Of a stretch of DNA of 64,000 nt, positions 8,798 to 23,517 are shown in pieces. Numbering within the stretch: position 1 is the first letter of the stretch; each line of letters starts with the position of its first letter. The notes beneath the pieces are model-generated. The model was not told where the DNA came from, did no database searches, and saw nothing but the letters and a program-made list of their open reading frames with translations. Source of the stretch: an uncultured delta proteobacterium (GTDB lineage Bacteria; Desulfobacterota; Binatia; UBA9968); NCBI GenBank assembly GCA_963804165.1, contig CAWDPO010000004.1, positions 64,001-128,000 of the forward strand. Reading direction: 5' to 3'. The position numbers were made by a program, and so were the translations under genes.

Positions 8798-8885
8798 TGG
8801 CGGAGGGGGCGAGATTCGAACTCGCGGTCCCTTGCGGGACGCCGGTTTTCAAGACCGGTGGTTTCAACCGCTCACCCACCCCTCC
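8798..8885 (-). tRNA. tRNA-Ser(TGA)
   Basis: GGAGGGG acceptor stem, CCGGT-CT-TGA-AA-ACCGG anticodon arm, long variable arm, GTTCGAATC T-loop, encoded CCA. Confidence 0.97.
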
Positions 8886-10089
8886 GAGAAGGAAAACAGG
8901 TACTTACGAGCCGAATGTTTGGCAGGAGAATCCGTGTCACAACCATGTTGCAAAATACCAAAGGCTTTTGCAATGTCGTTTCGCTGCAAGTGGATATATC
9001 GTTGATGCATTTGGAACGAACTATGTCCGGCAGCCAACATCGCGCTTTCCGCCGGAATTCCTTTCTGCTCCCATGCCGTTTTTGCACAGTGCCGTAGATC
9101 ATGAAACCGGAAGTTTTTAACCTTCGCATCTCGGCAGGCGCGTTTCAACGTGCCGGTGATTGCGTCCTTCGTAATGCGCTTCCCGTTCTCGCGCGTGAAG
9201 ACAAGCCCTTGAACGTTTCGGATCTTCGATTGCTTCCGCTCGGCTTCGATTTCATCCAAGATTTCGCCGACGCGATCCGTAAGCGGCGCCACCTGGCGAA
9301 CCCCTGTCTTGATCCGGCCGCCCTCCGGCTCGATTACTCCCCGCTCGCGGTCGACCATATCCTCAGTTAGGCGAATCAGATCACCCACAGAGAGCGCGGT
9401 CTCGCGGGCGACTTCGGCGAGCCACCGGAACCACTAGGAACAATCGCAAAGAGCCTTTGAGCCTCTGCAACGCTCAGAATCCGCTCCCGGGTGTTGGCTT
9501 CCGGAATTGCGCCGCGGAAGGACACTGCCGACGTCTTGAGCCCTCGATCCCGTGCTAAGTTTATCATCCGGCGAAGGAGTGACAGCTCATTCTTGATCGT
9601 TCCGTCTGCGACTTTGACGGTGGATTCCTTTCCGCCGCGGATGATGCCCTCGGCCTTTCGTGCATTCCGATATGCAAATAGATCCTCGCGGCAGAGATCA
9701 GTTAGCAGCCTGACGCCGAGTAGCCGCTTCACCGGCGCCGCTAGTGTCCGATCACGGTCAATGCTGCGTTTGCTTTTGACTTCCTCGAGCTCGAAGTAGC
9801 TGTCGGCCCAGGTCGAAACAGTCAGCCCGGCGGTCGGCTTCACCTTGTCGAGGTCGAAATCTTCCCGGCGAATGTTCCGCGCTTCGTAAACTTTCAATTC
9901 CTGCTTCGCGGTCTTGATATCGGATCCAACCGGAAACGTGCGAGACTTCCCTTTCCAGTCCTTAAACCGTGCATAGTACAGCGTCGACCACTCGCCGCTG
10001 GCCGTCTGGTACTGGCGCCGATAGAAGTGCTTGATCGGTATTTCGGTCTTGCCGTGGCGCTCCGTTACTCGTTCAAAGGTTTCTTCCAT
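8864..10089 (-). CDS. int: Tyrosine recombinase/integrase (one frameshift near 9435)
   Basis: ORFs 9376..10089 and 8864..9388; TIKNELSLLRRMIN, FHDLRH, AGHS and QRY motifs. Confidence 0.9.
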
Positions 10090-10217
10090 TTTCGATTTTC
10101 CTCCTCCCCTTGTGACTTGTATGTTGTAGTCCTTGTGGACTCCCGCTGATAACTTTCAAACGTTCCCCGTGTTTAGAGCCCTCTGGACTCAAAAGCCGGA
10201 AGTAGCAGACTATATGG

Positions 10218-10478
10218 GTGAGCATAGAGAAGAATTTGTGGCTTGTTTGGCAGATTTTTTTGCTGGGCCTTGTTATAGGCCTTAGCCTCTTTATCCTCGC
10301 CTGGTTCATAAACTGGATCTTCAAGACCATTCTTCCAAAGCCATTCCGCGCGCCAGTATTGTTAGTCACCGGTGTCAGCTTCCTAATCATCGGTCTCTTG
10401 GGCCTGACCTCGGTTTTGGATAAAACTTCTATCGTTCAAGTTGTCCGCAGAGTTTTGACGTGGAGCCCTTTCAGTTAA
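10218..10478 (+). CDS. Small two-TM membrane protein
   Basis: Two hydrophobic segments; lies antisense between the HTH gene and int. Confidence 0.5.
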   Translation: MSIEKNLWLVWQIFLLGLVIGLSLFILAWFINWIFKTILPKPFRAPVLLVTGVSFLIIGLLGLTSVLDKTSIVQVVRRVLTWSPFS

Positions 10479-10569
10479 AACCGCCGGGAGCCAGCCACTT
10501 GGCCAGCATCTCGGGCGCAACCCATTTCCCTCTAAGTCTCCGCGATCGAGAGATGGCCCCGTTTTACTT

Positions 10570-10593
10570 CGCTTGCTAGTATACTGTCAAGCG
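10570..10593 (-). promoter_or_regulatory. 24-bp imperfect palindrome overlapping a sigma70-like -35 (candidate operator of the promoter facing int)
   Basis: CGCTTGctAGTATACTgtCAAGCG; minus strand reads TTGACA-N18-TAAAAC. Confidence 0.55.
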
Positions 10594-10824
10594 TTAGTTA
10601 CTTTTTTTCCCAGTCTCTTGATGGGCATCCGAAACGCGGTAAGTATCGAGGCTTTTGGCGTCGATTTTCCAGCCAGTCATAGTGACCTTAACGATCCTCG
10701 TCTGAATTATATCTCCGCGTTCCGCTTCAAGGCGTCCCTTCTTGATCGCGTCGTGCACAGCGGCTCTCGTAATGCCGAGCTTTTTGGCGGCCTCGGTGAT
10801 CGTGTAACTCTTTTTGGTAGGCAT
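10594..10824 (-). CDS. Helix-turn-helix (excisionase/HTH_17-like) protein
   Basis: YTITEAAKKLGITRAAVHDAIKKGRLEA. Confidence 0.8.
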   Translation of the reverse strand: MPTKKSYTITEAAKKLGITRAAVHDAIKKGRLEAERGDIIQTRIVKVTMTGWKIDAKSLDTYRVSDAHQETGKKSN

Positions 10825-10879
10825 ATTCGGTGCTCATCACCCTTCTCCGCTGAGTTTCAACTAATTTCCCAGCTCCGAT

Positions 10880-11360
10880 TTAAAGCCCGTTTTCGGCGTT
10901 TTGTGTGCGAGTTAATGGTAATGTGCCACTCCCCCGATTTTGACGCAGTCTAGGCTTAACAAAATCAGCAAGTTGGCCGACCCATAATTGCTCGTTCCGG
11001 ACCCTGTTGCGCGTTGCTTTTGTTCGACGGCCGGGTGAAGCCCATTTTTTGCGATCGAAAACCGACGCTCCGCAGCCGCACGCGCAGAACGGGCGCACTT
11101 GCTGAGGCTCGGCTGCCGTCGCAGCAAAGTAGAACTCAAGGAGCGATCGATATGGAATGATGCTTTCCGGCCATCTTCCGGAAAAGAACGCGGGTAAAAA
11201 ATTCGAGGGGCTTATCGATCCGGCCGCGGAAGCGACCCGCTAACGATTGCGCGGTTAGATTGCGCCGGCGCGCGAGCTCGGCAAACTGCCGAAAAGTGAC
11301 GAGCTCAATTCTCTTGGTGGTTGACTCAGGCTCGTTTTCGGGGTTAAAGTTTTCTCGCAT
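10880..11360 (-). CDS. Hypothetical protein with CxCGC motif (frameshift near 11183)
   Basis: Removing one T joins MRENFNP...FFTRVL to SGRWPESIIPYRSLLEFY...RPFCACGCGASVFDRKKW. Confidence 0.55.
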
Positions 11361-11443
11361 AGAGTTTTCCCTTTCTTTGAACGCCCGTTGCTTGGCCGCC
11401 GCGGGCGTTTTTTTGACTACAACTTTTTCATTCGCGCGTTTTC

Positions 11444-11770
11444 CTAAAACCATTCGATATTTTTCAGCCGCTCCTCGCGCTCTTGGCGGGTCTTGGCTTC
11501 TGCGAGCACTCGCTTTTCCCACCTGTCACGCTCCGGCTGGGCATTGCGCTTCGGCTGCTTTGGTCTCGGCTCGGGCTCTGATTTCATGACCGCACGAATG
11601 ACGCTGGCGCAGCGCCCCTGATCGCTTTCGTCGAATTGGCCGAAGGTATCCCTGATTTTCGCGGCAATTCGGTTTGATTCACTCGCGCGATAATTTTTAT
11701 GCCATGGCTGATCGTAGCAGCGGTTAACGACCAAGTAGCCATCGATCATCGAGATTAAGATACTTTTCAT
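11444..11770 (-). CDS. Hypothetical protein
   Basis: GGAGGA RBS, operon spacing, charged C-terminus. Confidence 0.6.
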   Translation of the reverse strand: MKSILISMIDGYLVVNRCYDQPWHKNYRASESNRIAAKIRDTFGQFDESDQGRCASVIRAVMKSEPEPRPKQPKRNAQPERDRWEKRVLAEAKTRQEREERLKNIEWF

Positions 11771-11780
11771 TTTTTCCTCC

Positions 11781-12485
11781 TTACTTCTTCCGGAGTTCTT
11801 TCACGTCGGCCAATGGCATCTCGACGGTTTCAAACCGATTGAAGTCAGGCAGACCCTTTTTGAGTTTCTCGAGCCGCGCCGTGATTTGATCGGCCGGGAT
11901 CACGTTGAATTTCATGCCCTCGGCTTCCGCAATTGCCGCTTTGATATAAGCTCGCTTCTTTTCAACCGCTTGAGAATTCGAGTCGATGATTGTGACTTTA
12001 ACCTCGCCCGTGATGCGCGCCTTAGCGCCTGGCCGATATCCCAACTTGAATTCGTTGCGCGCCTTCTCGTCGGCCGTGAGCATCTCATAGAGAAAGTCGT
12101 CTATTTCCTGGGGTGCGGTCTTTTTGATCTCCCCATCGATCTTGGAGACATTGAAGCTATAATCGAGACTCGCGCATAACCTGGAATGTTGGGCGGCCGC
12201 TCTTTCCCGAGTCGCCGCCTGAAGCGCTTCATGCGCCAGCCGCTCTTTTTCCTGCGCTTCCAAAATCGCGGCCTCTAAGGCGGGCACTGCAGCAGCCCAG
12301 TCCTGATTGATCTGGTCACGTTGCGCGAGTAGCTCGCGAAGCCTGGTCAAACGTCTATCGTCGCGTTCACGCCGTAGTAATTCCAGTTGAGGGGAGTCTT
12401 TCAGCAGCGAAACGATTTCGTCTGCCGCTTCAGCGGCTTTCTCCTCGTCCGATTTAAAAAATCGATTCAAGCGTTCCGTGAGCAT
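11781..12485 (-). CDS. Coiled-coil hypothetical protein (234 aa)
   Basis: Ala/Glu/Arg-rich heptad helices; coupled to neighbouring genes. Confidence 0.75.
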   Translation of the reverse strand: MLTERLNRFFKSDEEKAAEAADEIVSLLKDSPQLELLRRERDDRRLTRLRELLAQRDQINQDWAAAVPALEAAILEAQEKERLAHEALQAATRERAAAQHSRLCASLDYSFNVSKIDGEIKKTAPQEIDDFLYEMLTADEKARNEFKLGYRPGAKARITGEVKVTIIDSNSQAVEKKRAYIKAAIAEAEGMKFNVIPADQITARLEKLKKGLPDFNRFETVEMPLADVKELRKK

Positions 12486-12694
12486 AAGTTTTTTCTCTCT
12501 CTTTTTATTTTGATAACTGATCCCAAGCTGCTTCGTATCTCAAGGAGATCATCGCGAATGGTGCTGAGCAGATCGGAGGATCTATCGTTGCTCCGCGGCG
12601 GCATGATTTCGATCGCTGCAATGATCGAAGACAAGCGACGGCGAATCCGTTCAGGCGTCCAGGCCTCGCCCTCATGCTCCATGGTCATCGTCAT
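12467..12694 (-). CDS. Small hypothetical protein
   Basis: ATGA overlap with the upstream ORF. Confidence 0.5.
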   Translation of the reverse strand: MTMTMEHEGEAWTPERIRRRLSSIIAAIEIMPPRSNDRSSDLLSTIRDDLLEIRSSLGSVIKIKRERKNLCSRNA

Positions 12695-12873
12695 TTTTCC
12701 TGCAATCTGCCGCGGACGACTTCGAGCCGGCGGCGTGCATCCGCGATCGCGCCCCTGAGTGATGCGGGTCCGTCGCCGTAGCGGATCGCAATTATGATTT
12801 GCTGTTCGGTTGGTAGCAGTTCGATAATCTGCCCAACTTCGGTCTCGATTTCACTTTGCGTTTGCCTGTTCAC
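12691..12873 (-). CDS. Small hypothetical protein
   Basis: AAGGA RBS before the GTG; overlaps the next gene. Confidence 0.5.
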   Translation of the reverse strand: MNRQTQSEIETEVGQIIELLPTEQQIIIAIRYGDGPASLRGAIADARRRLEVVRGRLQEK

Positions 12874-13107
12874 GATGGATGGTCCTTTCTAAGCCGGCGG
12901 CGGCAGACTCGGCCTGAGAATTCTTTCCACCCGGCGCGCAAAGATCTTTGACTTCGCGAATCCCGACGCTCACCGTGCCGGGCTTGAACATCTTCTCGAC
13001 CTCGTCAAAGACGATGCCCGAGAACGACGCCTTCAAGATCGCCGTGGGGTCCGCGCGGCGATATCCGGCGGAGATGCAGCGCTCGGTCTGTTTTTAGTTA
13101 ATCTCAT
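12851..13107 (-). CDS. Small hypothetical protein (frameshifted)
   Basis: Strong GGGAGGA RBS then ATG; MRLTK-/-QTERCISAGYRRADPTAILKASFSGIVFDEVEKMF. Confidence 0.5.
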
Positions 13108-13185
13108 TTGTGTGTTGTCCTCCCTTTTTTTTAAAAAGCGGCCCGTCCTGCACCCTTTTTCCCGCGTCCAGCGCTGTTCTGTCGA

Positions 13186-13572
13186 TCATTCTTTTCTTGT
13201 TCTTTTCGCATTTACGGCACCCTCGAAGAAAAATCCGAGCTTACGAGCCAATGTCTGGCAGCGCAGCGTGTAGCGGTTGAGAGACTGCTCGATATGGGCC
13301 TCGCTTTCCCGTTTTGATCGAGGACTTTCCTTGACCCGTCGTAAAATCCGGAGTTGATCTCGGTACGAAACAAACCAGTCGAATGCGTCAGCGTATTCGA
13401 GCGCCAAGGTGTTATCGCCTGTGGCATCAATGCGTCGACGAACGCGCGAGAGAGTGACCACGCGGTAATATTCTCTCCGCGCCTTAACCGAAAGGGTGGG
13501 CCGCCCGGGAGCGAGCCAAACCGGAATATTGCGAGAAGCACACTCGAAGAATACGCCTCTCAAGGCGGTCAT
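13186..13572 (-). CDS. Hypothetical protein
   Basis: 128-aa ORF co-oriented within the element operon. Confidence 0.5.
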   Translation of the reverse strand: MTALRGVFFECASRNIPVWLAPGRPTLSVKARREYYRVVTLSRVRRRIDATGDNTLALEYADAFDWFVSYRDQLRILRRVKESPRSKRESEAHIEQSLNRYTLRCQTLARKLGFFFEGAVNAKRTRKE

Positions 13573-13939
13573 ATTTCGTCGAAAGCGGAAGGGGATGCTT
13601 GAGATTCATCCTGCCGCTTCGATCGAGGGCAAACCCAAAGTCAAGCGCCGCTTGTGAGCAGTTTCGACGCGCATCCATGAGCGCGGACTTTGCGCCGCGT
13701 ACGACATGGCCGCGCTGTGCCCAGCGAGCCATCGCTTTTCGAAGGCCTTGATATGTCGAAAATGAAGCGCAGTAAAACTGAAGCGCCATTTCAAACGCTC
13801 GCTCTAATCGCCCAAGCCGGCGAAGCGTCGGCGCAACACGTTCCCATTCCTGGCGCGCAAGGTTGTCACCGAAGTCACGGCCTGACCGACGCGGCAGAAT
13901 GCTCGCATTGGGAAGTTTGAAAATTTTCGCCTTGGTCAT
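13484..13939 (-). CDS. Divergent P27-family phage terminase small subunit-like protein
   Basis: ARQEWERVAPTLRRLGRL...ALQFYCASFSTY...ALDFGF resembles the P27 TerS core. Confidence 0.55.
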   Translation of the reverse strand: MTKAKIFKLPNASILPRRSGRDFGDNLARQEWERVAPTLRRLGRLERAFEMALQFYCASFSTYQGLRKAMARWAQRGHVVRGAKSALMDARRNCSQAALDFGFALDRSGRMNLKHPLPLSTKYDRLERRILRVCFSQYSGLARSRAAHPFG

Positions 13940-13941
13940 AC

Positions 13942-14461
13942 TCAGGCCAGAAACCGTCGAGCGCCGAAAAACCGTCGGCTCTTATATTTGTTCACCGGAT
14001 CGTCATCCTCATCGGGAGGAAGAGCTCGCAGTTTGGAACGATCACCGGGATTAAGTCCGAATGCGGCCATCACGGCCCAACATTGGGCAAAGGCTGCGCG
14101 GGCGATACCGACGTGCGGTCTTGCAGTTTCGCCGTTTGCCACCGTCGTATGCGTCAAATTGTCGTTCAAACTCTCCATGGCGCGTTGATAGACACTCCAC
14201 CATTGCGCCGCGGCGGCGAGCGCATGAAGGTCCGCCTCTGAAAGAACTCGAACGCGCTTGAGCAAGACGGCGTAGTATCGCCAAAACTTGTGGGCATGAG
14301 GATCGAGCTTCACCGGACAATCCAGCCGTTGCGCCAGCCGTGGTTGCGGCTCGGCAGAATTTAAAGGTCTTCCTCCGGGATTCGGCGCCTTCCTGCCAAG
14401 CGACGAAGCTCATCTCGAGGATTTTCTTTCCGATCTTCACTGTCACTTTTTCGATTGCCAT
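13942..14461 (-). CDS. P27-family phage terminase small subunit (frameshift near 14400)
   Basis: NPGGRPLNSAEPQP...LDPHAHKFWRYY...LSEADLHAL...PHVGIARAA...FGLNPGDRSKL. Confidence 0.8.
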
Positions 14462-14464
14462 GGG

Positions 14465-14694
14465 TTCAACCTTGAGTTGATACTGAAGCTAAACTCGAAA
14501 CCGATCTTCGTTGCCCTTCTCGCTCCCGGACTTTTATCCAGCGCTCGAGTGTTTCTCGGTCGACTCTCAAAATTTTCTTCCGCTTGCCGCTGCGTATCGT
14601 TACCGTCGGGATTGCGCCCTCGATCATTAGGGCGCGCGCTCGATCGGCTCACGCCCAAGACGTCGGCGACTTCTTCAGGACGCAGCAGCTTCAT
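14465..14694 (-). CDS. HTH_17/AlpA-like DNA-binding protein (frameshifted)
   Basis: MKLLRPEEVADVLGVSRSSA continues in the shifted frame as GAIPTVTIRSGKRKKILRVDRETLERWI. Confidence 0.7.
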
Positions 14695-16283
14695 TGGTCG
14701 GACGCTCGTTTAACAACTCGCCCGCCGAAAATTGATAGCGCCGCGGATTCTAGTCCCGACCCCATCGAAATTCGTTTCTCGTCCCAGCTAGTCCCATGCT
14801 CGTCCCGACCGTTGGGACTAGAATCTTCCGCATTCTTTTCAATGCGTTGTGCGTTTTTTTCGGATGCTAGTCCCGAAGTGCCGTTTCCTAGAGAATGAAG
14901 ATAAGGACTAGAATCTTTTTTCCCCCTTAAGAATCCCCCTTCTCGGAGACCATCGGAATGGTCCATCGGCCTTTCACCACTGGCCATCAGGCTACCGGCG
15001 AGTGAGTACAAAAACGGCTGGCCTCTCTTGCCGGTGCCAGTACGCTCGACGTCGCCGTTTTTGAAAAGTGAGCGCAGTGCCTTGCCGACAATCCAGCCGC
15101 GCATTGGAACGGCCTTCCGGATCTCGCCCTCGCGCTGCTCTCCGTCGTCTTCAAGCACTTTGAGTATCAGCGGCGCCGCTTCTTCAATCTCGACGTCGTC
15201 GACGGTACCTTGAACGTAAAGGCGCCCGGTTATTTTCTCGAATCCGATGCCCACTTCGCCGAAGTTTTTTCCGCCGCGTTGGTCGCTGCTCAGAATGCGG
15301 CGCTCACTATTCGCCAGCCGTTTTGCAAACAGGTAGGTGTAGCAAAGGCCACGAATTGCCGTTGAACCGATTGAAGCGTCCAAATCGTCACGCGAGTCCT
15401 TCTTGGCATGGTGCAGCGTCATCACATGGCAGTTTCCGGCCCTCGCCGCTTCGAGTAGCGGTTCCATCTTCAAAGTGACTTCGGAATAATCGTTGATGTT
15501 CTCGAAGCGGCAAAGCATCTGCAAAACGTCGATGATCACCAGGCGCGCGCCCTTGTCTTTCACCGCTGCCAGTATCCAGGCGATGGCATCGACCGGCGCG
15601 CTGCCGGCGTGAATGAAAACGGGGTCAGTCTCTCGAAGCCCGAGAGAAATAAAAGTATCGGCGATGTCAGGTAGGGGCCCGTCAAGAAAAACGTACGCCA
15701 CAGGGGATTGCTGCGTTACACGTCCAAGCCACGGCTCGCCGCGGGCAATGGATATCGAGAGATCGGCGGCTATCGTGCTCTTGCCTACTTTCGGCTTTGA
15801 GACTAAGACAGATGCACCACCGGCCGGCAAACAATCGGCGACAATCCAGCGGTTAGGATCTTTCGGCGCTTGTAGAATTTCCTTCGCTGTCAAAAACTCT
15901 GGCCATATCTCGGATTGTTTAGTCTGTGCGGACTTCGTCGGCTTGTACCGCTGATAAACCCGTGCAACTTTCTCGAGAGCGATGCGTTCAGAAAATGGCG
16001 GATCGCAATTCTTGGCGGCCTCGAGAATCAACGTCTCGGCCATCTCGCGCGGGACGTCGGCGTTTCTTAGTTTGCAGGCGAGCTTGAAAAGAGTTTGATC
16101 GCGCTGGCCCTCTGGTACGCCATGCAGAGCTCCGGCCGTGTTGAAGCGATCGCGGGCGCTCTCATTGCTCGACGGTTCAGAAATCAGGTTAAACAGCTCG
16201 GGTGGCAGCTTGGGAAGCTCGCCGCTTATAGATACTTCCCAAGCGTAGGGCTTTCCGTTCTCGTGAATAGAAGGGACGGACAT
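14691..16283 (-). CDS. Replication protein: PriCT-1 plus AAA_25 (RepA-like) helicase; N-terminal prim-pol domain missing
   Basis: PSIHENGKPYAW (end of a prim-pol domain), PEGQRDQTLFKLACKL (PriCT-1), SKPKVGKST Walker A, LVIID Walker B, LHHAKK. Confidence 0.8.
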   Translation of the reverse strand: MSVPSIHENGKPYAWEVSISGELPKLPPELFNLISEPSSNESARDRFNTAGALHGVPEGQRDQTLFKLACKLRNADVPREMAETLILEAAKNCDPPFSERIALEKVARVYQRYKPTKSAQTKQSEIWPEFLTAKEILQAPKDPNRWIVADCLPAGGASVLVSKPKVGKSTIAADLSISIARGEPWLGRVTQQSPVAYVFLDGPLPDIADTFISLGLRETDPVFIHAGSAPVDAIAWILAAVKDKGARLVIIDVLQMLCRFENINDYSEVTLKMEPLLEAARAGNCHVMTLHHAKKDSRDDLDASIGSTAIRGLCYTYLFAKRLANSERRILSSDQRGGKNFGEVGIGFEKITGRLYVQGTVDDVEIEEAAPLILKVLEDDGEQREGEIRKAVPMRGWIVGKALRSLFKNGDVERTGTGKRGQPFLYSLAGSLMASGERPMDHSDGLREGGFLRGKKDSSPYLHSLGNGTSGLASEKNAQRIEKNAEDSSPNGRDEHGTSWDEKRISMGSGLESAALSIFGGRVVKRASDQ

Positions 16284-16918
16284 CTACGTCACGCAAGTTT
16301 CAGCGGACTCCGAACGGACAAGCGCGCTGAGGAAGTGATCAGGGAATCACATTAGAAGACGTGCTGGTGTTTGCTGCGGGTTCTGCTAACTGGCTTCAAG
16401 GCGAAATTCCTCTGGCGTCCATCTTTGTTATCGTGTCTCAAGTTCTATGGCAGCAGGTTTACCCAAATGGCAGCGTTTGGTCGTCCTACTACGCTTGAAA
16501 GTTTATGGCATCGCCTTTGCGCTTTGTCCCAGCGGGAAAATTCCGAAAGCGAGGAGAAAAAGGGCATGCGATTGGAAAAAGCCATAAAAGTGTTAAAGCG
16601 CGTCTGGAAGGGTGTTGTTTGGGCTGAATTGGTGCTTGCGACTGTGTTACTTCTCTTCTTCTCGCAATTTTTTTCTTACGACGTTTTCGTATCAATTCTC
16701 CATCGACGGGCTGCGGCTGCAGCTTTCACCCAGCCGCGATAGCTTGCCGCGGGCGCGGTTCGACGAGGTCTGCGGGAAGGCCGGGAGGGCGAGCTGAACC
16801 GCACACACCGCTGGCTGGAACCGGTTCCGCTCTCTCCCAACCCGACCAGCCGCCGCGGGTTACTCTCCGCGATCCTAACCAGCCGTCGCCTGAAGTAACA
16901 CAGCATCCAACCCGAGAG

Positions 16919-17290
16919 TTATCTCTCACTTTGAGTAAATCGCTCGATCCTTGCTTTGATAACGTCTAGCGAGATCGGCTTTTCCAAATAATCGACCATG
17001 CCCGCCTCTAAAGCTTCTCCCCGAGTGTGGGGTCCAAGAAAAGCACTGCAACCGATGATGGGTATTTGAGCACTCGCTGAATTCTTTCGTATCGCGCGGG
17101 CGACCTCTGCGCCTTTCATATCTGGGAGATCGATGTCCAACAAGATAAGCGTGGGTCTATCGGAGATAGCTACTTTCACTGCATCTGCGCCGCTTGCGGC
17201 TTCTGAAACCTCATAGCCACAACGATGGAGCATCAGCGCCAAAATTTCTCTCAGGTGCAGATTGTCCTCAACGATGAGAATCTTCGGCAT
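16919..17290 (-). CDS. Single-domain response regulator (DivK-like)
   Basis: KILIVEDN...LILLDIDLPDMKG...CSA...YLEKP. Confidence 0.9.
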   Translation of the reverse strand: MPKILIVEDNLHLREILALMLHRCGYEVSEAASGADAVKVAISDRPTLILLDIDLPDMKGAEVARAIRKNSASAQIPIIGCSAFLGPHTRGEALEAGMVDYLEKPISLDVIKARIERFTQSER

Positions 17291-17312
17291 ATTGGGGCGG
17301 AGTGAAGCTTAG

Positions 17313-17711
17313 CTAAGGGGTGGTTTCAAAGCACGGAGATTGTATTGGCCGAGGTCTACTTCCGGAAGTCCCCAGGTACTTGTTCAATACTTCTCTCACG
17401 TCGGCGGAGGAAATGGGCTTGATTAAAACGGTGGCGGCGTTCGACAACGCTTCCTCTATCCGAGTTGCGGTTCGCTCCGCGGTGTAAATTACAATGGGGA
17501 AGCTAAAGGGAAATTGATTGCTCTTTAGCCAGGCGGCGATTTCAACACCGTCTGCAATCATGACCAAATCGGGTCGGTCACTCACCGATTTTTCTATGCC
17601 TTGGGCGATTTCTTCGGCTTGTATCACCTCATAGCCGACGCGGCGCACAATCGTTGCCATCGCGTGTCGGTACTCGAGATTGTTATCGACCAAGAGAATC
17701 TTTTTTGCCAT
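17313..17711 (-). CDS. Degenerate single-domain receiver protein
   Basis: KILLVDNN...PDLVMIA-DGVEIA (acceptor Asp and following loop missing)...YTA...LIKP. Confidence 0.75.
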   Translation of the reverse strand: MAKKILLVDNNLEYRHAMATIVRRVGYEVIQAEEIAQGIEKSVSDRPDLVMIADGVEIAAWLKSNQFPFSFPIVIYTAERTATRIEEALSNAATVLIKPISSADVREVLNKYLGTSGSRPRPIQSPCFETTP

Positions 17712-18240
17712 CGATTTTCCGCAGCGTTATTTTTCGGTGCCCTTGCACTACGACGTGTATCTCAACCGAGTTGTGGAATTCTTTCGGCTGAATCCGTGCT
17801 GATTCTGCAATTACGTCTTTCAATAGTTCCACGCCCGAATTGATTCCGGCATTTGCCACGTACCGTTGTAGCCATGAAAGAGTTTATCAGTTGTATGCAT
17901 TTCGCGTTTCATTTTATGGTGCCTTTTTAGGACTCCACACAAAGCAATCGCAGGGCCGTCAGCTAACCGTGGCAATCGAGGGCGCAATGCTTCCTTCTGT
18001 ACCCATACTGACCCGTGTTCACAACTTTTTCATGCGCCATTTTTGCTTTACCGGGAATATTTACGCGCGAAACCGTTCCCCCGTCGACGGTGATTGCATA
18101 GGCTTTCTTTGACAAAAGAGCCGGGTGAAAGGATAAGCCGCGCCCTCTCTCACTGACCAACCACCGCCGCGCGCCACACCCGCATTACTCAGCTCTATAT
18201 CGCCTCGACATATCGGAATCTTTTTTCAAGCCTGGAAACG

Positions 18241-18585
18241 TTGTACGAAGAAATAATGAATGCGATTCCGCCTTTCCTGCCGTGGGTCGTTGTTATCCTC
18301 GGCATCTCGATAATTTTCGCTGCCGCGGCGACCGACCACCACGAAGGAAGTCCGGTTCTGTTTACTGCAGGTGGAGTCTTTAGTGTCGCCGGATTAGTGA
18401 TGAGGTGCGTGCCAAAAGCAATGCCCGCACTGCGGCACTTCTATTGCGCTCCGACCAAAGATAACGTTTCGATGATTAGTTCCTCGGGCGGTAGGTTTTT
18501 GGCCATAGACAATTCTTCCTTTCTCAAGACAAACCGCGCCAACAGCGTATTATTCCTGTTTTCTTTCCCGTTTCGCTGGGGTTGA
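18241..18585 (+). CDS. Small membrane hypothetical protein
   Basis: Two hydrophobic segments in the N-terminal half. Confidence 0.35.
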   Translation: MYEEIMNAIPPFLPWVVVILGISIIFAAAATDHHEGSPVLFTAGGVFSVAGLVMRCVPKAMPALRHFYCAPTKDNVSMISSSGGRFLAIDNSSFLKTNRANSVLFLFSFPFRWG

Positions 18586-18780
18586 CTTGCACCGCTGAGC
18601 AAACGCTGGATGTGACGGTCAAAACGTGACAGATGAGGTCATCAGTTTGGTGAAAAACTGGAAATTATTTGCACTAAACTAAGAAACTTATAGACAAAAT
18701 TTCTTAGTGTGCTATCGACAAGACCTTCACCGCTCCGACAGCGCCAAGCGCGCGATTTGGACGGTCAAGCAGGATCCGAA

Positions 18781-19170
18781 ATGAGTCACGCCACGTCACT
18801 GAGAACAATCGGACAGTCGCTTGAGAAAGCTCGAGTGACGGTCTTTGAAATCGAGAATAATCGCGGCAATTATCTCGTCCTCAGCAATTCGTTGACCCAT
18901 CGGTTGATGCGTTTCAGTTCTGCCGACATTTTGCGGCATGAAGGGCAGGCAAAAAAGCAGAGACATCGTCATTATTTTTTTCGCGGATTAGCCAAGAATA
19001 AACTTTCCCATGCGCTACGTAGTTTAGGCGATCACCTTGATAGAGCCGAAGCACGTGCATTTCACATTTCCTGGACGCCTCATTTGGTTCTTGTAAATTC
19101 CGAGAGACCTGGTGGACCGAGCGATAGTCGAAGCTTTACGGTTAAAGAGCTGCACCATGGTCAAAGATAA
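18781..19170 (+). CDS. Hypothetical protein with internal duplication
   Basis: AGGA RBS before the ATG at 18781; SLRTIGQSLE and ALRSLGDHLD repeats. Confidence 0.6.
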   Translation: MSHATSLRTIGQSLEKARVTVFEIENNRGNYLVLSNSLTHRLMRFSSADILRHEGQAKKQRHRHYFFRGLAKNKLSHALRSLGDHLDRAEARAFHISWTPHLVLVNSERPGGPSDSRSFTVKELHHGQR

Positions 19171-19327
19171 GCAACTGACCGATCTCCAATCCGTCAACGC
19201 GCAGATGGCCCAGCTCTCACGCCAGATTCTAACCGAGCCGTACAATCCAAAGCGTGAGGAGCAGGTCAAAGAACTCGACCGACTTAAAGAGCAGGCCAGG
19301 CTACTACGAAACCAACAGCTGATCTGA
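19157..19327 (+). CDS. Small helical hypothetical protein
   Basis: MVKDKQLTDLQ...KELDRLKEQARLL; overlaps the previous stop. Confidence 0.45.
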   Translation: MVKDKQLTDLQSVNAQMAQLSRQILTEPYNPKREEQVKELDRLKEQARLLRNQQLI

Positions 19328-19374
19328 ACGCGTGACTTGAACAGCGCTGATGTTGGTGATAACTGCACGGCGCC

Positions 19375-19572
19375 ATGCTTTATGACATCCTCCTTGCCGT
19401 CGTGATTCTCGTACCAACAGTGTTCGTGTATCGATGGACATGTCGCCCTGACATGCCAAAGAAAATCGAGAGAGCCGGAAGCCGAAAAGAAGAACGCTCT
19501 TTCGCAGCTGTCTCAGTGACCAATCAGGTAAAGACCACGCCTGCCAAGTTGGAGCAAGAGCACGCGTTCTAA
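19375..19572 (+). CDS. Small single-TM protein
   Basis: N-terminal hydrophobic helix with a charged tail. Confidence 0.45.
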   Translation: MLYDILLAVVILVPTVFVYRWTCRPDMPKKIERAGSRKEERSFAAVSVTNQVKTTPAKLEQEHAF

Positions 19573-19843
19573 GCTTTACGCGATCTGAACTCCCACCGCA
19601 CTGGCATCCTCGCCAGCTCAGCGTTTAATCGATCGATCTCGTCTTTGATCTTTTCATCCTTGGTTCGGTGGTATTGCGTACCAAGCCGGCCAAGGCGCTG
19701 ATCGATCGCATAGCGGACGGCGGCATGAATGCCGGCAAAGTTAACGCGAAGGTTTTGCTGTTGCCCTTCGCCATCGTCATTGGCGTCGGTCGCGGTTTGA
19801 ATAGCTATCAGGCGGGCGCCGGTTGCTGTGCTAGCTAGAGGCG

Positions 19844-20011
19844 CTAGCGCCGAAAGAGCCGGAGACCGACGATCATGACCACGTAGGCCATGGCGGTCGA
19901 GAAGACCAGATTGACGCCCCAGCTGAACGGCTCCAGCATTTTGGCGAGGATCAAGCCCAGGCTCCCGGCGCCTACGAGATAAAGCACCAGTTTGATGCGC
20001 GGAACTCCCAT
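19844..20011 (-). CDS. 55-aa two-TM membrane protein (not in ORF track)
   Basis: MGVPRIKLVLYLVGAGSLGLILAKMLEPFSWGVNLVFSTAMAYVVMIVGLRLFRR. Confidence 0.5.
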   Translation of the reverse strand: MGVPRIKLVLYLVGAGSLGLILAKMLEPFSWGVNLVFSTAMAYVVMIVGLRLFRR

Positions 20012-20289
20012 TTGCGTTCCGGCCCTGGCTGACCTGGCGAGATGTAGTAAGAAAAACGCGGTTAATTTTCGATGGGCAATCTTACACTACCGTGTCGGTG
20101 TGGCTGAATCTACCTATCACAGCAAATTGACAAATATCCCTGCTCGGCTTGCGTTATCGCGGAATCGGTCGGCGCACTATAGCGAGTTGCCGGCGCAGTT
20201 TATCGATCTCGGCCTTGTTCTCTCGGAAGCCAGCGCCAAGCTCATTCATTTTGTCCACGAGCAGAACGATGCATGCCTGTTGAATGCCT

Positions 20290-20865
20290 CTAGTCGCGAC
20301 CCGTAGCGCTTCGCGGAGTTCTGTTTTTTCCCGATCGTTTCGCCTTTCGTTTATATTCTTGCGCCTTTTCAACCTTGGTTCCGAAGCTGCCATGCTTCCA
20401 CTCGACACTTCCCCGATCGCCGATGATCAGATAGCGCAGAGCCTTCGTTACGGAGCTTGCCGCGATTCCGCCGCGCTGTTCGATTTCCCGCTCACAACTA
20501 TCCCGCCGACCATAAACAAAATCGCCGGTAAGGCAAAAACGCATACCGGTGAATTCGGACGTCGGTACTTCATCAAACGCGAACTGCGATACATGATTCG
20601 GCGCCGCAAGGTTTTCGGCCGTTCCGCCAATGAGTTCCTGTAGAGTATCAAGTAAGTAAGTGCGCTCGGTCTCAGTCACAATTCCATCGGCTAGGACACT
20701 TTTGACGCGCGCATGAACAATATCGCCTGGCCAACCCGCGCAGATTTCATCGTTAGAGACCAGCCAATCGTTAAGAAACTTGATTTCGGTGTCGTTCAAG
20801 TGACCGTCGCAGACCATTCCTTGAGCGATTCCGAGCAACGCACGCAATCGGCTACTGTGCTGCAA
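20290..20865 (-). CDS. BRCT domain-containing protein (ends possibly truncated)
   Basis: LLGIAQGMVCDGHLNDTEIKFL...FCLTGDFVYG...GG...VTKALRYLIIG...WKHGSFGTKVEKA. Confidence 0.75.
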   Translation of the reverse strand: MQHSSRLRALLGIAQGMVCDGHLNDTEIKFLNDWLVSNDEICAGWPGDIVHARVKSVLADGIVTETERTYLLDTLQELIGGTAENLAAPNHVSQFAFDEVPTSEFTGMRFCLTGDFVYGRRDSCEREIEQRGGIAASSVTKALRYLIIGDRGSVEWKHGSFGTKVEKAQEYKRKAKRSGKNRTPRSATGRD

Positions 20866-20899
20866 CCAGAAGAATTAACCACACCTAACCGGAGGAGAC

Positions 20900-22006
20900 A
20901 TGGTCGACTTTATCAACCCATCACACCCATCGGAATTTGCAGTTTTAAGACTTGTTGCCGAAGCGCAAGAGGGCGGCGGCGATGTCTTCGATATCGGTCG
21001 TCTCTGCAGAACACTCGAGCCCGACGATAGGGTCGGGTGGGAAAAAGGTTGGCTTGGGCTCGCCGAGGCAACCGAAGCCAAGGCCAAGCACGAGCTGGCA
21101 TTAGGCCACAAGCGAACCGCTATGCAGTTTTTCTTCCATGCGAACCAATATTACCGAATGTCCGACGTGTTCCTCGCCGGCGATGAGCTGGAGCGCAGAA
21201 AGGCGCGCTTTCTAAAGTGCCAGGAAGACTTCCACGCCGCGGCAAAATTGCATTCTCCGAGGATCGAAACGATCAAAATCCCTTGCGGTGCAGAATACGA
21301 AGGTTACTTCTGTCATCCGGTAAACCCGGCGCCAGGCAAGTGGCCCGTGGTTTTTCTCATCGGCGGTGCTGATGCGTTCTCGGAAGAACTCTACTTCGAC
21401 GGCCGTCCCGCCACAGAGCGCGGCTGGGCTTTACTGCTGGTCGACACGCCAGGGCGCGGTTCGTCGATCTATGTGAAAGGCATTCCTGCGCGGCCGGACT
21501 ATGAAGTCCCGGTCAAGGCTTGCTTCGACTATTTGGTTTCTCGACCCGAGGTGGATCCGAATAGAATTGCCGTCATCGGCATCAGTATGGCCGGCTACTA
21601 CGCGCCGCGCGCGGTCGCTTTCGAGCCGCGCACGAAAGCCTATATCGGCTGGTCGGGCTGCTACAGCGTGTTGGACGATCTCTACGAGTTTTGCCCAAAT
21701 CTGCGGACGACCGTGCGGCGCCTTCTCGGCGGCGTGACCGACGAGCAAGCTCGCGAGCAGCTTAAGGCGTTCACCATGGAAGGCATTTCGCAGAATATCA
21801 AATGTCCGACGTTGATTACCCACGGCGGTCACGACATCCGCATGAGCGTCGAAGGCGCCAAGCGGCTCTTCAACGAGATCGGCGCCAAGGACAAGACTCT
21901 GAAAATCTACGACGACCCAAAAGCCGGCGGGACAATTCACTGCAGCCACGACTACTGGGCGCACAACGTCCCGTTCATGCTCGACTGGCTCGAAGAACGT
22001 CTATAA
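20900..22006 (+). CDS. Alpha/beta hydrolase (FrsA / 2,6-dihydropseudooxynicotine hydrolase-like)
   Basis: GGAG RBS; GGADAFSEE, DTPGRG and GISMAGYYAPR nucleophile elbow; HCSHD. Confidence 0.85.
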   Translation: MVDFINPSHPSEFAVLRLVAEAQEGGGDVFDIGRLCRTLEPDDRVGWEKGWLGLAEATEAKAKHELALGHKRTAMQFFFHANQYYRMSDVFLAGDELERRKARFLKCQEDFHAAAKLHSPRIETIKIPCGAEYEGYFCHPVNPAPGKWPVVFLIGGADAFSEELYFDGRPATERGWALLLVDTPGRGSSIYVKGIPARPDYEVPVKACFDYLVSRPEVDPNRIAVIGISMAGYYAPRAVAFEPRTKAYIGWSGCYSVLDDLYEFCPNLRTTVRRLLGGVTDEQAREQLKAFTMEGISQNIKCPTLITHGGHDIRMSVEGAKRLFNEIGAKDKTLKIYDDPKAGGTIHCSHDYWAHNVPFMLDWLEERL

Positions 22007-22100
22007 AAGCTCAGGGAGCCGGACCAACAATGTGTAGACCGGATGATAACTGTTTGCGTTGTCATCCCGAGCGACAGACTGCGTGAAAACTCTCACGGAG

Positions 22101-22196
22101 CCCTTCGACTCTGCTCAGGGCGAACGGATAAGGACTCAAGTCTAATAACCCACACCGTTCGTGCTGGCCCAGCCTGCCCTGAGCAAAGCCGAAGGG
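22101..22196. repeat. Palindromic intergenic repeat, copy 1
   Basis: cccttcgactctgctcagggcgaacggataa...ccgttcgtgctg...gccgaaggg; similar to 44300..44374. Confidence 0.7.
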
Positions 22197-22398
22197 AACC
22201 ATTTCACCCAGTCCAACGGAGCGACAAATCTATTCGAAACCAAGCTGCAGCTCAGCGCCATCCTAAGTCGCCGTTCCTTCAATCATATTCCTGCTGGCGC
22301 CTCGACCTTACAAATTCGTCAGTCCAGGTGAACCATCGCTGGGCTCACGCCTGCCGAAGTCAACGTTCTTGATCACTCTTTAGGCAAGCGCCCGGCAC

Positions 22399-23062
22399 AT
22401 GGGTAAGCACATCGCCGGAAATCCGAGCATCATCGTCGAAAACATGGCCGAAGCCGCAAGTCTGATCTCGGCGAATTATGTTTACAAAGCCGCCAAGCCC
22501 GACGGACTCACAATCGGTCATTTCATCGGCGGACGACGTTCCCCATGTGCTTCAGGCCGCGCTCGGCCTGCCGCCTGCAAGTCGTGTCGGGATACAAAGG
22601 TACCGCCGATATTCGCATCGCGGGCCGAAAGCGGCGAAGTGGCCTTCTGAACCGGCTGGGAATCTTTCAAATCGACCTGGCGCAAATCGCTCGATTCAGG
22701 TGACGCATTTATCGCCGTTCAAGCGGTCGCCAAACCTCATCCCGAGCTGCCCAAAGTGCCTCTGGCGATGAATTACGCCAAAACCGAGGAGGCCAAAAAA
22801 CTGATTCAGGTTGGCGCCCATGACCCTGGCACGCTCGCGCGCCCTTTCGTCTTACCTCCGGGCACTCCGAAGGATCGGGTGCAAATCCTGCGCAAGGTGT
22901 TCGCGGACACCATGGACGATGCGGAATTCCTCGCCGAAGCCAAGAAGAGCAACCTGGATATCAGCCCTCTATCCGGGGAGGATGTGGCGAAGACGGTGGA
23001 GAATATTTTTAAGATCGGCCTGCCATCGCCGCCAAGTTGAAGCAGATCCTGCTGTTCAAGTA
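22399..23062 (+). pseudogene. Tripartite tricarboxylate transporter (Bug/TctC-like) substrate-binding protein remnant
   Basis: RHMGKHIAGNPSIIVENM...KPDGLTIG then HPELPKVPLA...RPFVLPPGTPKDRVQILRK; N-terminus and centre missing. Confidence 0.75.
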
Positions 23063-23082
23063 GGGGCGACCGGCGGTCGCCC
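23060..23082 (+). repeat. REP-like GTAG hairpin between convergent genes
   Basis: GTAG-GGGCGACC-GGC-GGTCGCCC. Confidence 0.7.
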
Positions 23083-23109
23083 GTTACTCATGGGCGCGCA
23101 CGTCGCTTG

Positions 23110-23517
23110 CTACTGCACGAGTTGTGGCGCCGGTTGAATCACTTCAACAGGCAACGAGCCGATGTGCTCGCCATCGCTGTCAATGGCAAATTCGTAAGCA
23201 CCAGGCCCAGGGACGGTTAGATTGGCCACGCGCAAGTTGATGTTGGCGTGATAAAGATTGGTCACGTTGTTCCGTTCAATGACCTGGTGTCTGGCATCCG
23301 CGCGCATTACAGACTGTCCCTCCACCCTGCGGAATTCGATGGTGAGGCCATGATCGCCCGCGCCGTCAAATCCTACTTGAGCGAAAAGCCAAAACGTCGG
23401 CAGAGGAGCGCGAAAGTCGCCGACGATAAACCGGTCGAAAAGCCCCATGAGACTGAACTTGCCCGACTTCTCTTCGCGCACGTCATCGCACAGGGTGGCA
23501 AGGAATAATTTCGCCAT
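23110..23517 (-). CDS. Hypothetical beta-sandwich protein (DUF6941-like)
   Basis: MAKLFLATLCDDVREEKSGKFSLMGLFDR...PGPGAYEFAI. Confidence 0.7.
   Translation of the reverse strand: MAKLFLATLCDDVREEKSGKFSLMGLFDRFIVGDFRAPLPTFWLFAQVGFDGAGDHGLTIEFRRVEGQSVMRADARHQVIERNNVTNLYHANINLRVANLTVPGPGAYEFAIDSDGEHIGSLPVEVIQPAPQLVQ

What the first reader, a model, noticed from the sequence alone, without database searches (positions are those of the whole stretch)
8864..16283. Capsid-less PICI-like satellite in a poorly studied lineage
Seen: about 7.4 kb, mostly one strand, with replicase (PriCT-1/AAA_25), HTH, two TerS-like genes, small hypotheticals, a coiled-coil protein, a second HTH and int. No major capsid, portal, TerL, tail or lysis genes are recognisable. 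Known: int + alpA-like + pri/rep + terS without structural genes is the PICI architecture. Inference: a satellite of an HK97/P27-type helper phage with a gene order (rep first, int last) that I do not recognise from described families.
Basis: partly seen in the sequence, partly recalled or inferred. Interest (0 to 1): 0.7.

Follow-up and report, generated by a model that had tools for sequence, protein, structure and literature searches.

The report
Broken phage satellite, duplicated small terminase
This 7.4-kb stretch beside a serine tRNA gene is the truncated, partly broken remains of a mobile island with integration, replication and DNA-packaging genes but no capsid genes, so it is likely a phage parasite of a known general type, notable mainly for a second, stripped-down packaging subunit that might join or jam a helper phage's packaging ring.

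Summary
The genes are there: rep (PriCT-1/AAA_25), HTH, two Terminase_4 genes, a coiled-coil protein, HTH and int, running into tRNA-Ser(TGA). No capsid, portal or TerL was found. The copy is a remnant: attL is missing, rep lacks 131 N-terminal (Prim-Pol) residues, and five genes are broken. 'Rep first, int last' is not a new order. These islands cross over near the tRNA anticodon and sit upstream of the tRNA, so the circle reads int-regulator-rep-terS, as in PICIs. Relatives with both att ends (7.7-16 kb) also lack head genes; only 1 of 10 terS loci in the order is followed by TerL. A prophage remnant is therefore unlikely. What is new is TerS2, a separate clade of HK97-type small-terminase cores without the canonical end segments, single or internally duplicated, found behind a normal TerS in 4 loci. 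Its role (ring spacer or helper-packaging blocker) is inferred, not tested. The scan noted capsid-less terS+tape-measure satellites on other DNA before, but not this tandem. Verdict: new variant of a known kind, decayed copy.

The parts
8798..8885 (-). tRNA-Ser(TGA); its first ~40 nt (8846-8885) form attR, the copy supplied at the island's int end
   Evidence: relatives carry a 39-42 nt 5' fragment at the island's other end
8864..10089 (-). tyrosine integrase, split over two frames near 9430; its 3' end runs into the tRNA
   Evidence: intact 389-401 aa homologues in L073 and L076
10218..10478 (+). 86-aa hydrophobic ORF, identical in two other islands of this genome
10594..10824 (-). HTH_17 / excisionase-like gene just before int
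   Evidence: 59% identical to the gene at the same place in L076
10880..11354 (-). one ~150-aa unknown gene with a CxCGC motif, split into two ORFs
   Evidence: the halves are 49% and 35% identical to one 152-aa ORF of L124
11444..11770 (-). 108-aa ORF, no family
11781..12485 (-). 234-aa protein: a 74-residue helix plus a three-helix bundle; function unknown; a homologue sits beside terS and a tape-measure-like gene in G322
12467..13036 (-). three small ORFs (75, 60, 61 aa), no family, no homologue in the loci held
13186..13939 (-). TerS2: two tandem HK97-type TerS cores, split by a frame change near 13545 into ORFs 13939-13484 and 13572-13186
13942..14400 (-). TerS1, P27/HK97-type small terminase; homologues are 157-163 aa, and here the start codon and first ~15 residues are missing
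14466..14694 (-). HTH_17 (Xis/AlpA-like) regulator, frameshifted
   Evidence: the intact 70-aa sister copy in L007 hits HTH_17 E 6e-12 and Phage_AlpA E 0.002
14691..16274 (-). Prim-Pol/PriCT-1/AAA_25 replicase lacking the first 131 residues, i.e. most of the Prim-Pol domain
16274..16352 (+). 24-codon scrap joined to the cut rep gene; resembles the C-terminus of LigD-type DNA ligases (name recalled, no Pfam hit)
16353..23110 (.). mixed extra DNA between the remnant and the conserved gene after serS (two receiver domains, a phrog_3989 gene, an alpha/beta-hydrolase-like gene, fragments); the true left boundary is lost somewhere here
   Evidence: serS-to-tRNA distance 14.7 kb here versus 0.9-3.6 kb in 9 of 12 relatives

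Best explanation
The stretch is the left-truncated, partly broken remnant of a tRNA-Ser-integrated island from a family of capsid-less islands that likely spread as PICI-like satellites of HK97/P27-type phages. How an intact member works: the integrase crosses over near the anticodon, leaves a ~40-nt 5' tRNA fragment as attL and restores the tRNA at the int end (the att anatomy is shown in relatives; the reaction is inferred). After helper infection the island would excise with its HTH/Xis protein and replicate with its own Prim-Pol/helicase (inferred from PICI biology). Its TerS1 ring would mark the island's own packaging site and recruit the helper's TerL and procapsids (inferred). TerS2 keeps the ring-forming core but not the canonical end segments, so it would co-assemble with TerS1 or with the helper's TerS, acting as a spacer or a blocker of helper packaging, analogous to Rpp (inferred, untested). 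This copy has lost attL and most of its primase domain, so it can probably neither excise nor replicate.
For: Gene content. Empty site: 9 of 12 relatives have only 0.9-3.6 kb between serS and the tRNA. attL 5' fragments in six relatives; int end fused to the tRNA 5' half in 10 of 66 genomes with a match. Complete terS-bearing islands with both att ends: L073 8.7 kb, L076 16.2 kb (rep 61% identical), L072 9.9 kb, L074 15.6 kb, G018:C7 7.7 kb. No capsid or portal in G110, G121, G025 or G018; no TerL_ATPase in G110, G121 or G025, and none on G018:C7. TerL follows terS in 1 of 10 loci; 1 is undetermined at a contig end. A shared motif lies before terS or after HNH in four related loci, plus one independent hit. 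Remnant state: no attL (best local score 22 against a shuffle mean of 20.75); rep starts at residue 132 of a 60%-identical homologue; five broken genes against a background of 0.18 per kb. TerS2: own long-branched clade, SH-aLRT 95 in a quick tree; model pLDDT 84, best solved match HK97 TerS 8pop_A, Z 9.6, rmsd 6.5, 118 aligned, over the second repeat; the best viral matches are mostly TerS.
Against: No excision, circle or virion evidence was obtained. No helper was found in this genome, which is 81% complete. No capsid-size gene was identified. 2 of 3 metagenome loci with close TerS1 relatives (L055, L056) have no TerS2 behind it, so the pair is not obligatory. Z 9.6 is within the range the tool calls common for helical proteins, and Foldseek gave no match at E<=0.001. 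The family sample is small and several relatives are themselves frameshifted or lack rep (G018:C7). Indel breaks may be assembly errors: P rises from 0.0035 to 0.05 if the true background is twice the estimate. The rep/ligase-scrap junction is not bridged by independent contigs.
Confidence: 0.72

Rival explanations
1. The family is an integrative element that is not packaged by its own terS; the TerS-like proteins serve as anti-phage factors that poison the packaging rings of incoming HK97-type phages.
For: TerS2 lacks the canonical ends and evolves fast. The window copy lacks the shared pre-terS motif (best E 0.53). Some sister islands have no Terminase_4 hit at all (G000:C46).
Against: TerS1 relatives keep the full N-terminal motif. 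HNH genes, a shared pre-terS motif and tape-measure genes occur in relatives, which points to self-packaging.
Confidence: 0.13
2. The stretch is a deletion remnant of a full HK97-like prophage or of a capsid-forming PICI.
For: The copy is clearly decayed and left-truncated. A cf-PICI-like element (primase, AAA_25, HNH, TerL, capsid, protease, portal; G005:C50) and a terS-terL pair (G016:C131) exist in the same genus.
Against: The known deletion is at the rep end, away from where head genes would lie (after terS). The terS-to-int part has no head-gene scraps. Five terS-bearing relatives with both att ends lack head genes too.
Confidence: 0.09
3. The element is intact and active; the breaks and the truncation are assembly errors of a long-read metagenome bin.
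For: 3 of 24 conserved genes in this genome show frame changes, and genes next to the island are broken too.
Against: Indel errors cannot remove attL and 131 codons of rep. A short-read contig is identical to the window across the terS2 break, though with only about 24 nt on one side, below the tool's 31-nt rule, and possibly from the source sample.
Confidence: 0.06

Closest known systems
PICIs, SatelliteFinder definition (PMC10085698, passages read)
   Same: Tyrosine integrase at a tRNA, HTH regulator, primase-replicase, own terS, no lysis genes; size of intact relatives 7.7-16 kb against a PICI median of 9.5 kb; circular order int-regulator-rep-terS.
   Different: No capsid-morphogenesis gene identified; att lies downstream of int, so the linear order looks reversed; second, derived TerS gene; tape-measure genes in some relatives, while the PICI model forbids tail components; helper dependence untested.
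Rpp of E. coli PICIs (PMC6739421, abstract and section 13 read)
   Same: A satellite protein that resembles part of TerS and could redirect or block packaging by hetero-oligomerising with it.
   Different: Rpp mimics the winged-helix DNA-binding domain of lambda TerS. TerS2 is an HK97-type ring core, sometimes doubled, sits behind the island's own TerS, and its binding is untested.
HK97 small terminase (PMC11331095, passages read; PDB 8POP)
   Same: Best solved structural match for the TerS2 model.
   Different: HK97 TerS reads DNA with residues 3-23 and 125-145 of adjacent protomers; TerS2 has different, shorter ends and can be a two-core chain.
EPIPs (PMC12822802, part 1 of 2 of the text read) and PLE tape-measure modules (PMC12987554, passages)
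   Same: Small satellites with their own tape measure (and terS in EPIPs), like relatives L072, L057 and L126.
   Different: EPIPs use a serine integrase and carry head-to-tail genes; PLEs parasitise ICP1. The window copy has no tape-measure gene.
Islands with a 5' tDNA fragment (Islander, PMC4383910, passages)
   Same: Island upstream of the tRNA, displaced 5' fragment, integrase overlapping att, tandem arrays.
   Different: This is the minority configuration (159 of 3919 islands), known but uncommon; the fragment is lost in this copy.

Membership tests
PICI | integrase | tested here: met
   PF00589 E 1e-18; frameshifted here, intact in L073 and L076
PICI | regulator homologous to AlpA, MerR or Stl | tested here: inconclusive
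   HTH_17 genes present; the sister copy hits Phage_AlpA only at E 0.002, below cut-off; the attL-proximal regulators seen in relatives lie in the deleted part
PICI | primase-replicase | tested here: met
   PriCT_1 + AAA_25; Prim-Pol domain cut here, whole in homologues
PICI | small terminase | tested here: met
   two Terminase_4 hits over cut-off
PICI | capsid-morphogenesis gene | tested here: inconclusive
   no family hit; fold searches of the 234-aa candidate gave only generic helical bundles
PICI | no tail, holin, portal or TerL genes | tested here: met
   window; relatives L072, L057 and L126 do carry tape-measure-like genes
PICI | order int - regulator - pri-rep - terS | tested here: met
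   holds on the circle formed by joining attL and attR in L073 and L076, not on the linear map
PICI | flanking att repeats | tested here: not met
   no attL in this copy; present in six relatives at the same tRNA
PICI | helper-induced excision, replication and packaging in helper particles | not testable with these tools
   no junction in two low-coverage runs; no hit in viral contigs
cf-PICI / full prophage | own capsid, portal and TerL | tested here: not met
   (genome 81% complete; the island itself lies inside one contig)
EPIP | serine integrase | tested here: not met
   the integrase is of the tyrosine family
EPIP | tape measure protein | tested here: not met
   no ORF of that size or family in the window copy; met in relative L072 (phrog_9483 E 2e-11)
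Rpp-like packaging redirector | hetero-complex with TerS that shifts DNA specificity | not tested

The most novel reading that the evidence does not exclude
TerS2 is a new class of satellite packaging effector, made by duplicating the HK97-type TerS ring core once or twice in one chain and shedding the cos-reading arms. It enters TerS rings to disable helper packaging or to bias mixed rings to the island's site. It defines an undescribed family of capsid-less, modular satellites (swappable replicons, optional HNH and tape measure) in this uncultured deltaproteobacterial lineage.
Probability: 0.3. Interest if true: 0.75.

Novelty: new variant of a known kind. Interest (0 to 1): 0.45.

Why it matters
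The island itself is a dead copy of a familiar design: capsid-less satellites with their own terS are standard PICIs. The value lies in the family. If TerS2 joins terminase rings, it would be an HK97-type counterpart of Rpp built from the ring core instead of the DNA-binding domain. A natural two-core chain would also be a direct probe of how an odd-numbered TerS ring reads cos with arms from neighbouring subunits. The work also shows that detectors anchored on int-first order will miss islands whose att lies after int.

Tried and rejected
Novel gene order: rejected (circular permutation plus truncation). attL search: exact and fuzzy searches of the window and of contig C4 found nothing beyond chance. 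The 234-aa protein as a Sid/Psu/TcaP-like scaffold (idea recalled): fold searches gave generic three-helix bundles (best Z 9.1, rmsd 2.6, 79 aligned) and no viral match at E<=0.001, so this is inconclusive; it has only 5 homologues besides itself, and the metagenome and viral scans were blank. The ESM Atlas was not available. Foldseek of the TerS2 model against the PDB gave no match at E<=0.001, and the TerS1 profile found no related PDB sequence. TerS1 was not found in viral contigs; P0172 (TerS2) had no match in 50,697 phage records, while a TerS1 homologue matched 287, all under 60% identity. Sequencing runs: no RNA holder listed; two DNA runs held 10-13% of the words, too thin to test excision or most breaks. 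Promoter/terminator scan was at chance level; Rfam found only the tRNA. Tree: only the quick tree finished; row L105 is probably not a true TerS reading and was ignored, and the second repeat of L057 fell outside the TerS2 clade on a very long branch. Literature searches for tandem or duplicated terS in satellites returned 0 papers (one search also 0), and none of the 15 papers listed for the guessed lineage names used them; the library lacks most subscription papers, and no supplements were read. The lineage name (Binatia/UBA9968) is my guess and is untested; the only taxonomic evidence is the record title of a same-genus genome, 'uncultured delta proteobacterium'.
Full report
What is in the sequence. 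None of the 22 (Pfam) or 19 (PHROGs) ORFs scanned hit a capsid, portal, TerL, tail or lysis family. Six-frame searches of the whole genome for TerL_ATPase, TerL_nuclease, Phage_capsid and Phage_portal were blank (genome 81% complete, so a helper may be unassembled). GC content is close to the rest of the window.

The site and the gene order. serS lies at 24809-23538, 14.7 kb from the tRNA. In 9 of 12 relatives where both genes were held the gap is 0.9-3.6 kb; the other three have 8.9, 16.2 and 17.3 kb. Six relatives examined carry a 39-42 nt copy of the tRNA's 5' end upstream of the tRNA (G018:C24, G005:C63, G027:C81, G025:C25, G110:C1, G121:C14). The int 3' end joined to the tRNA 5' half appears in 10 of the 66 genomes that matched, out of 90 searched. 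These islands therefore cross over near the anticodon and sit upstream of the restored tRNA. Islander counts this configuration in 159 of 3919 islands (PMC4383910, passages). Joining attL to attR in the complete islands L073 and L076 puts int in front of the regulator and rep, followed by terS, which is the PICI order (PMC10085698, passages). 'Rep first, int last' is a permutation, not a new plan.

This copy is a remnant. No 5' tRNA fragment remains: an 18-nt search with 3 mismatches finds only the tRNA itself, and the best local alignment between the tRNA and serS scores 22 against a shuffle mean of 20.75. Rep homologues at 60-79% identity have a full Prim-Pol domain. The window protein begins at residue 132 of one of them, and DNA similarity stops at 16274, where a 24-codon scrap resembling a LigD ligase C-terminus (name recalled) begins on the other strand. 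Five genes are broken: int, the first HTH, the start of terS1, terS2, and a 150-aa gene split into two ORFs. Background in this assembly is 3 of 24 genes and 0.18 frame changes per kb, giving P = 0.0035 for five breaks in 5.7 kb, or 0.05 if the background is twice as high. One short-read contig matches the window exactly across the terS2 break, with only about 24 nt on one side; that is suggestive only. A motif shared before terS or after HNH in four related loci, with one further independent hit, is absent here; I read it as a possible packaging site, which is inference.

The family is capsid-less. Terminase_4 was found at 12 places, forming 10 loci, in 8 of 123 genomes of the order. TerL follows terS in one locus (G016:C131, TerS about 45% identical to TerS1). 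One locus ends at a contig edge (G099:C66), and eight have no TerL_ATPase hit on their contig. Five terS-bearing islands have both att ends: L073 8.7 kb, L072 9.9 kb, L074 15.6 kb, L076 16.2 kb and G018:C7 7.7 kb; the last lacks rep. Capsid was found in 0 of 5 and portal in 1 of 5 genomes checked, the portal hit being on another contig of G322. Replicons are swappable: Prim-Pol/AAA_25, CHC2 primase/AAA_25, Prim-Pol/D5, or HTH_36 initiator with DnaB. HNH, a metallopeptidase-like gene, a coiled-coil gene and, in L072, L057 and L126, a tape-measure-like gene are optional (the L126 label rests on resemblance, with no Pfam hit). Satellites with tape measures are in print (PMC12822802; PMC12987554), and earlier scan notes describe more (not checked by me). 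A cf-PICI-like element occurs in the genus (G005:C50), but it is a different element.

TerS2. A second Terminase_4-like gene follows a canonical terS in four loci: the window, G018:C7, G110:C247 and L057. It is absent behind the close TerS1 relatives L055 and L056. A profile search returned 5 proteins among 716 candidates. Three are single cores of 127-128 aa and one is a short fragment. P0172 (52% identical) continues into a second core that aligns with window ORF 13572-13186, as does the intact 249-aa ORF of L057. The model of the L057 protein has mean pLDDT 84. Its best solved match among 48,161 chains is HK97 TerS with DNA (8pop_A, Z 9.6, rmsd 6.5, 118 aligned, residues 88-237), modest for a helical protein but agreeing with the sequence hits; its best viral matches are mostly TerS. 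In a quick tree of 58 rows, 9 of the 10 TerS2 rows form one long-branched clade (SH-aLRT 95), apart from the TerS1 clade. TerS2 lacks the N-terminal GNPG-type segment and the C-terminal tail of TerS1. In HK97 the terminal segments of adjacent protomers form the DNA-reading substructure, while the core forms the nonamer (PMC11331095, passages). I infer that TerS2 co-assembles into rings without reading cos, as a spacer in the island's ring or a poison in the helper's, in the manner of Rpp (PMC6739421, abstract and section 13). Its own short basic N-terminus could instead supply a new specificity. Binding was not tested. Searches for tandem or duplicated terS in satellites found no paper, and the scan holds no note on this sequence.

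The coiled-coil protein. It has 5 homologues at 52-61% identity and a distant one beside terS and a tape-measure-like gene in G322:C32 (hhalign 98%), which ties it to the packaging module. Its model (pLDDT 75) is a long helix plus a three-helix bundle with no informative fold match.

Verdict. Shown: gene content, integration site, left-end loss, capsid-less complete relatives, and a distinct TerS2 clade with single- and double-core forms. Inferred: helper dependence, packaging, TerS2 function. It works like a PICI; this copy fails the att test and the capsid-morphogenesis gene is unresolved, so I file it as a decayed member of a PICI-like family, a new variant of a known kind. Interest 0.45.

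Noticed in passing
window 9430-9400; L073:13642-14808, L076:1993-3156, L039:2660-3541: In 4 of 4 integrases of the tRNA-Ser(TGA) clade the first catalytic arginine position (by alignment to the L007 integrase; motif role recalled) holds serine, yet exact att duplications suggest the clade integrates.
   Followed up: partly
window 9843-10546; G000:C4:60176-60644; G000:C46:219130-219815: A 469-687 bp segment (86-aa hydrophobic ORF, int upstream region and int start) is 98.7-98.9% identical in three islands of this genome at different tRNAs, suggesting recent exchange; the C46 integrase is a chimera.
   Followed up: partly
G000:C46:202977-220849 (L099, L007): A complete 17.9-kb sister island upstream of tRNA-Leu(TAA), with attL, Prim-Pol/D5, HNH and the shared pre-terS motif but no Terminase_4 hit; it carries a large helicase-like cargo gene.
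   Followed up: partly
L100:876-8391 (G005:C50): cf-PICI-like element: CHC2 primase, AAA-type helicase, HNH, TerL, major capsid, protease and portal.
   Followed up: partly
L119:3002-5068, L101:10345-11950, L102:7825-10599, L008:4740-7202: Another small-island type in the genus, with a divergent TerL-like gene (weak PF20441/PF03354 hits), in two loci behind a short terS-like ORF, and no capsid seen in the ORF lists.
   Followed up: no
L055:590-1027, L056:928-1260, L078:3017-3391, L076:9440-9655: A conserved 120-146 aa protein of no family follows single terS genes in place of TerS2.
   Followed up: no
window 16919-17711 and 18709-19170: Stand-alone receiver domains and an unnamed 153-aa gene recur in or beside related islands (L004, L054, L122, L127), so they may be island cargo.
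   Followed up: partly
window 20290-20865: Gene matching phrog_3989 (E 5e-55) with weak similarity to the C-terminal part of NAD-dependent ligases.
   Followed up: no
L047:2600-18080 (G019:C46): About 15 kb of fragmented NRPS-like genes (recognised by eye) fill the serS-tRNA-Ser gap with no integrase hit and no att fragment.
   Followed up: no
window 22080-22200: A palindromic repeat (21-nt arms) draws many contigs from both runs, probably a REP-like element.
   Followed up: no
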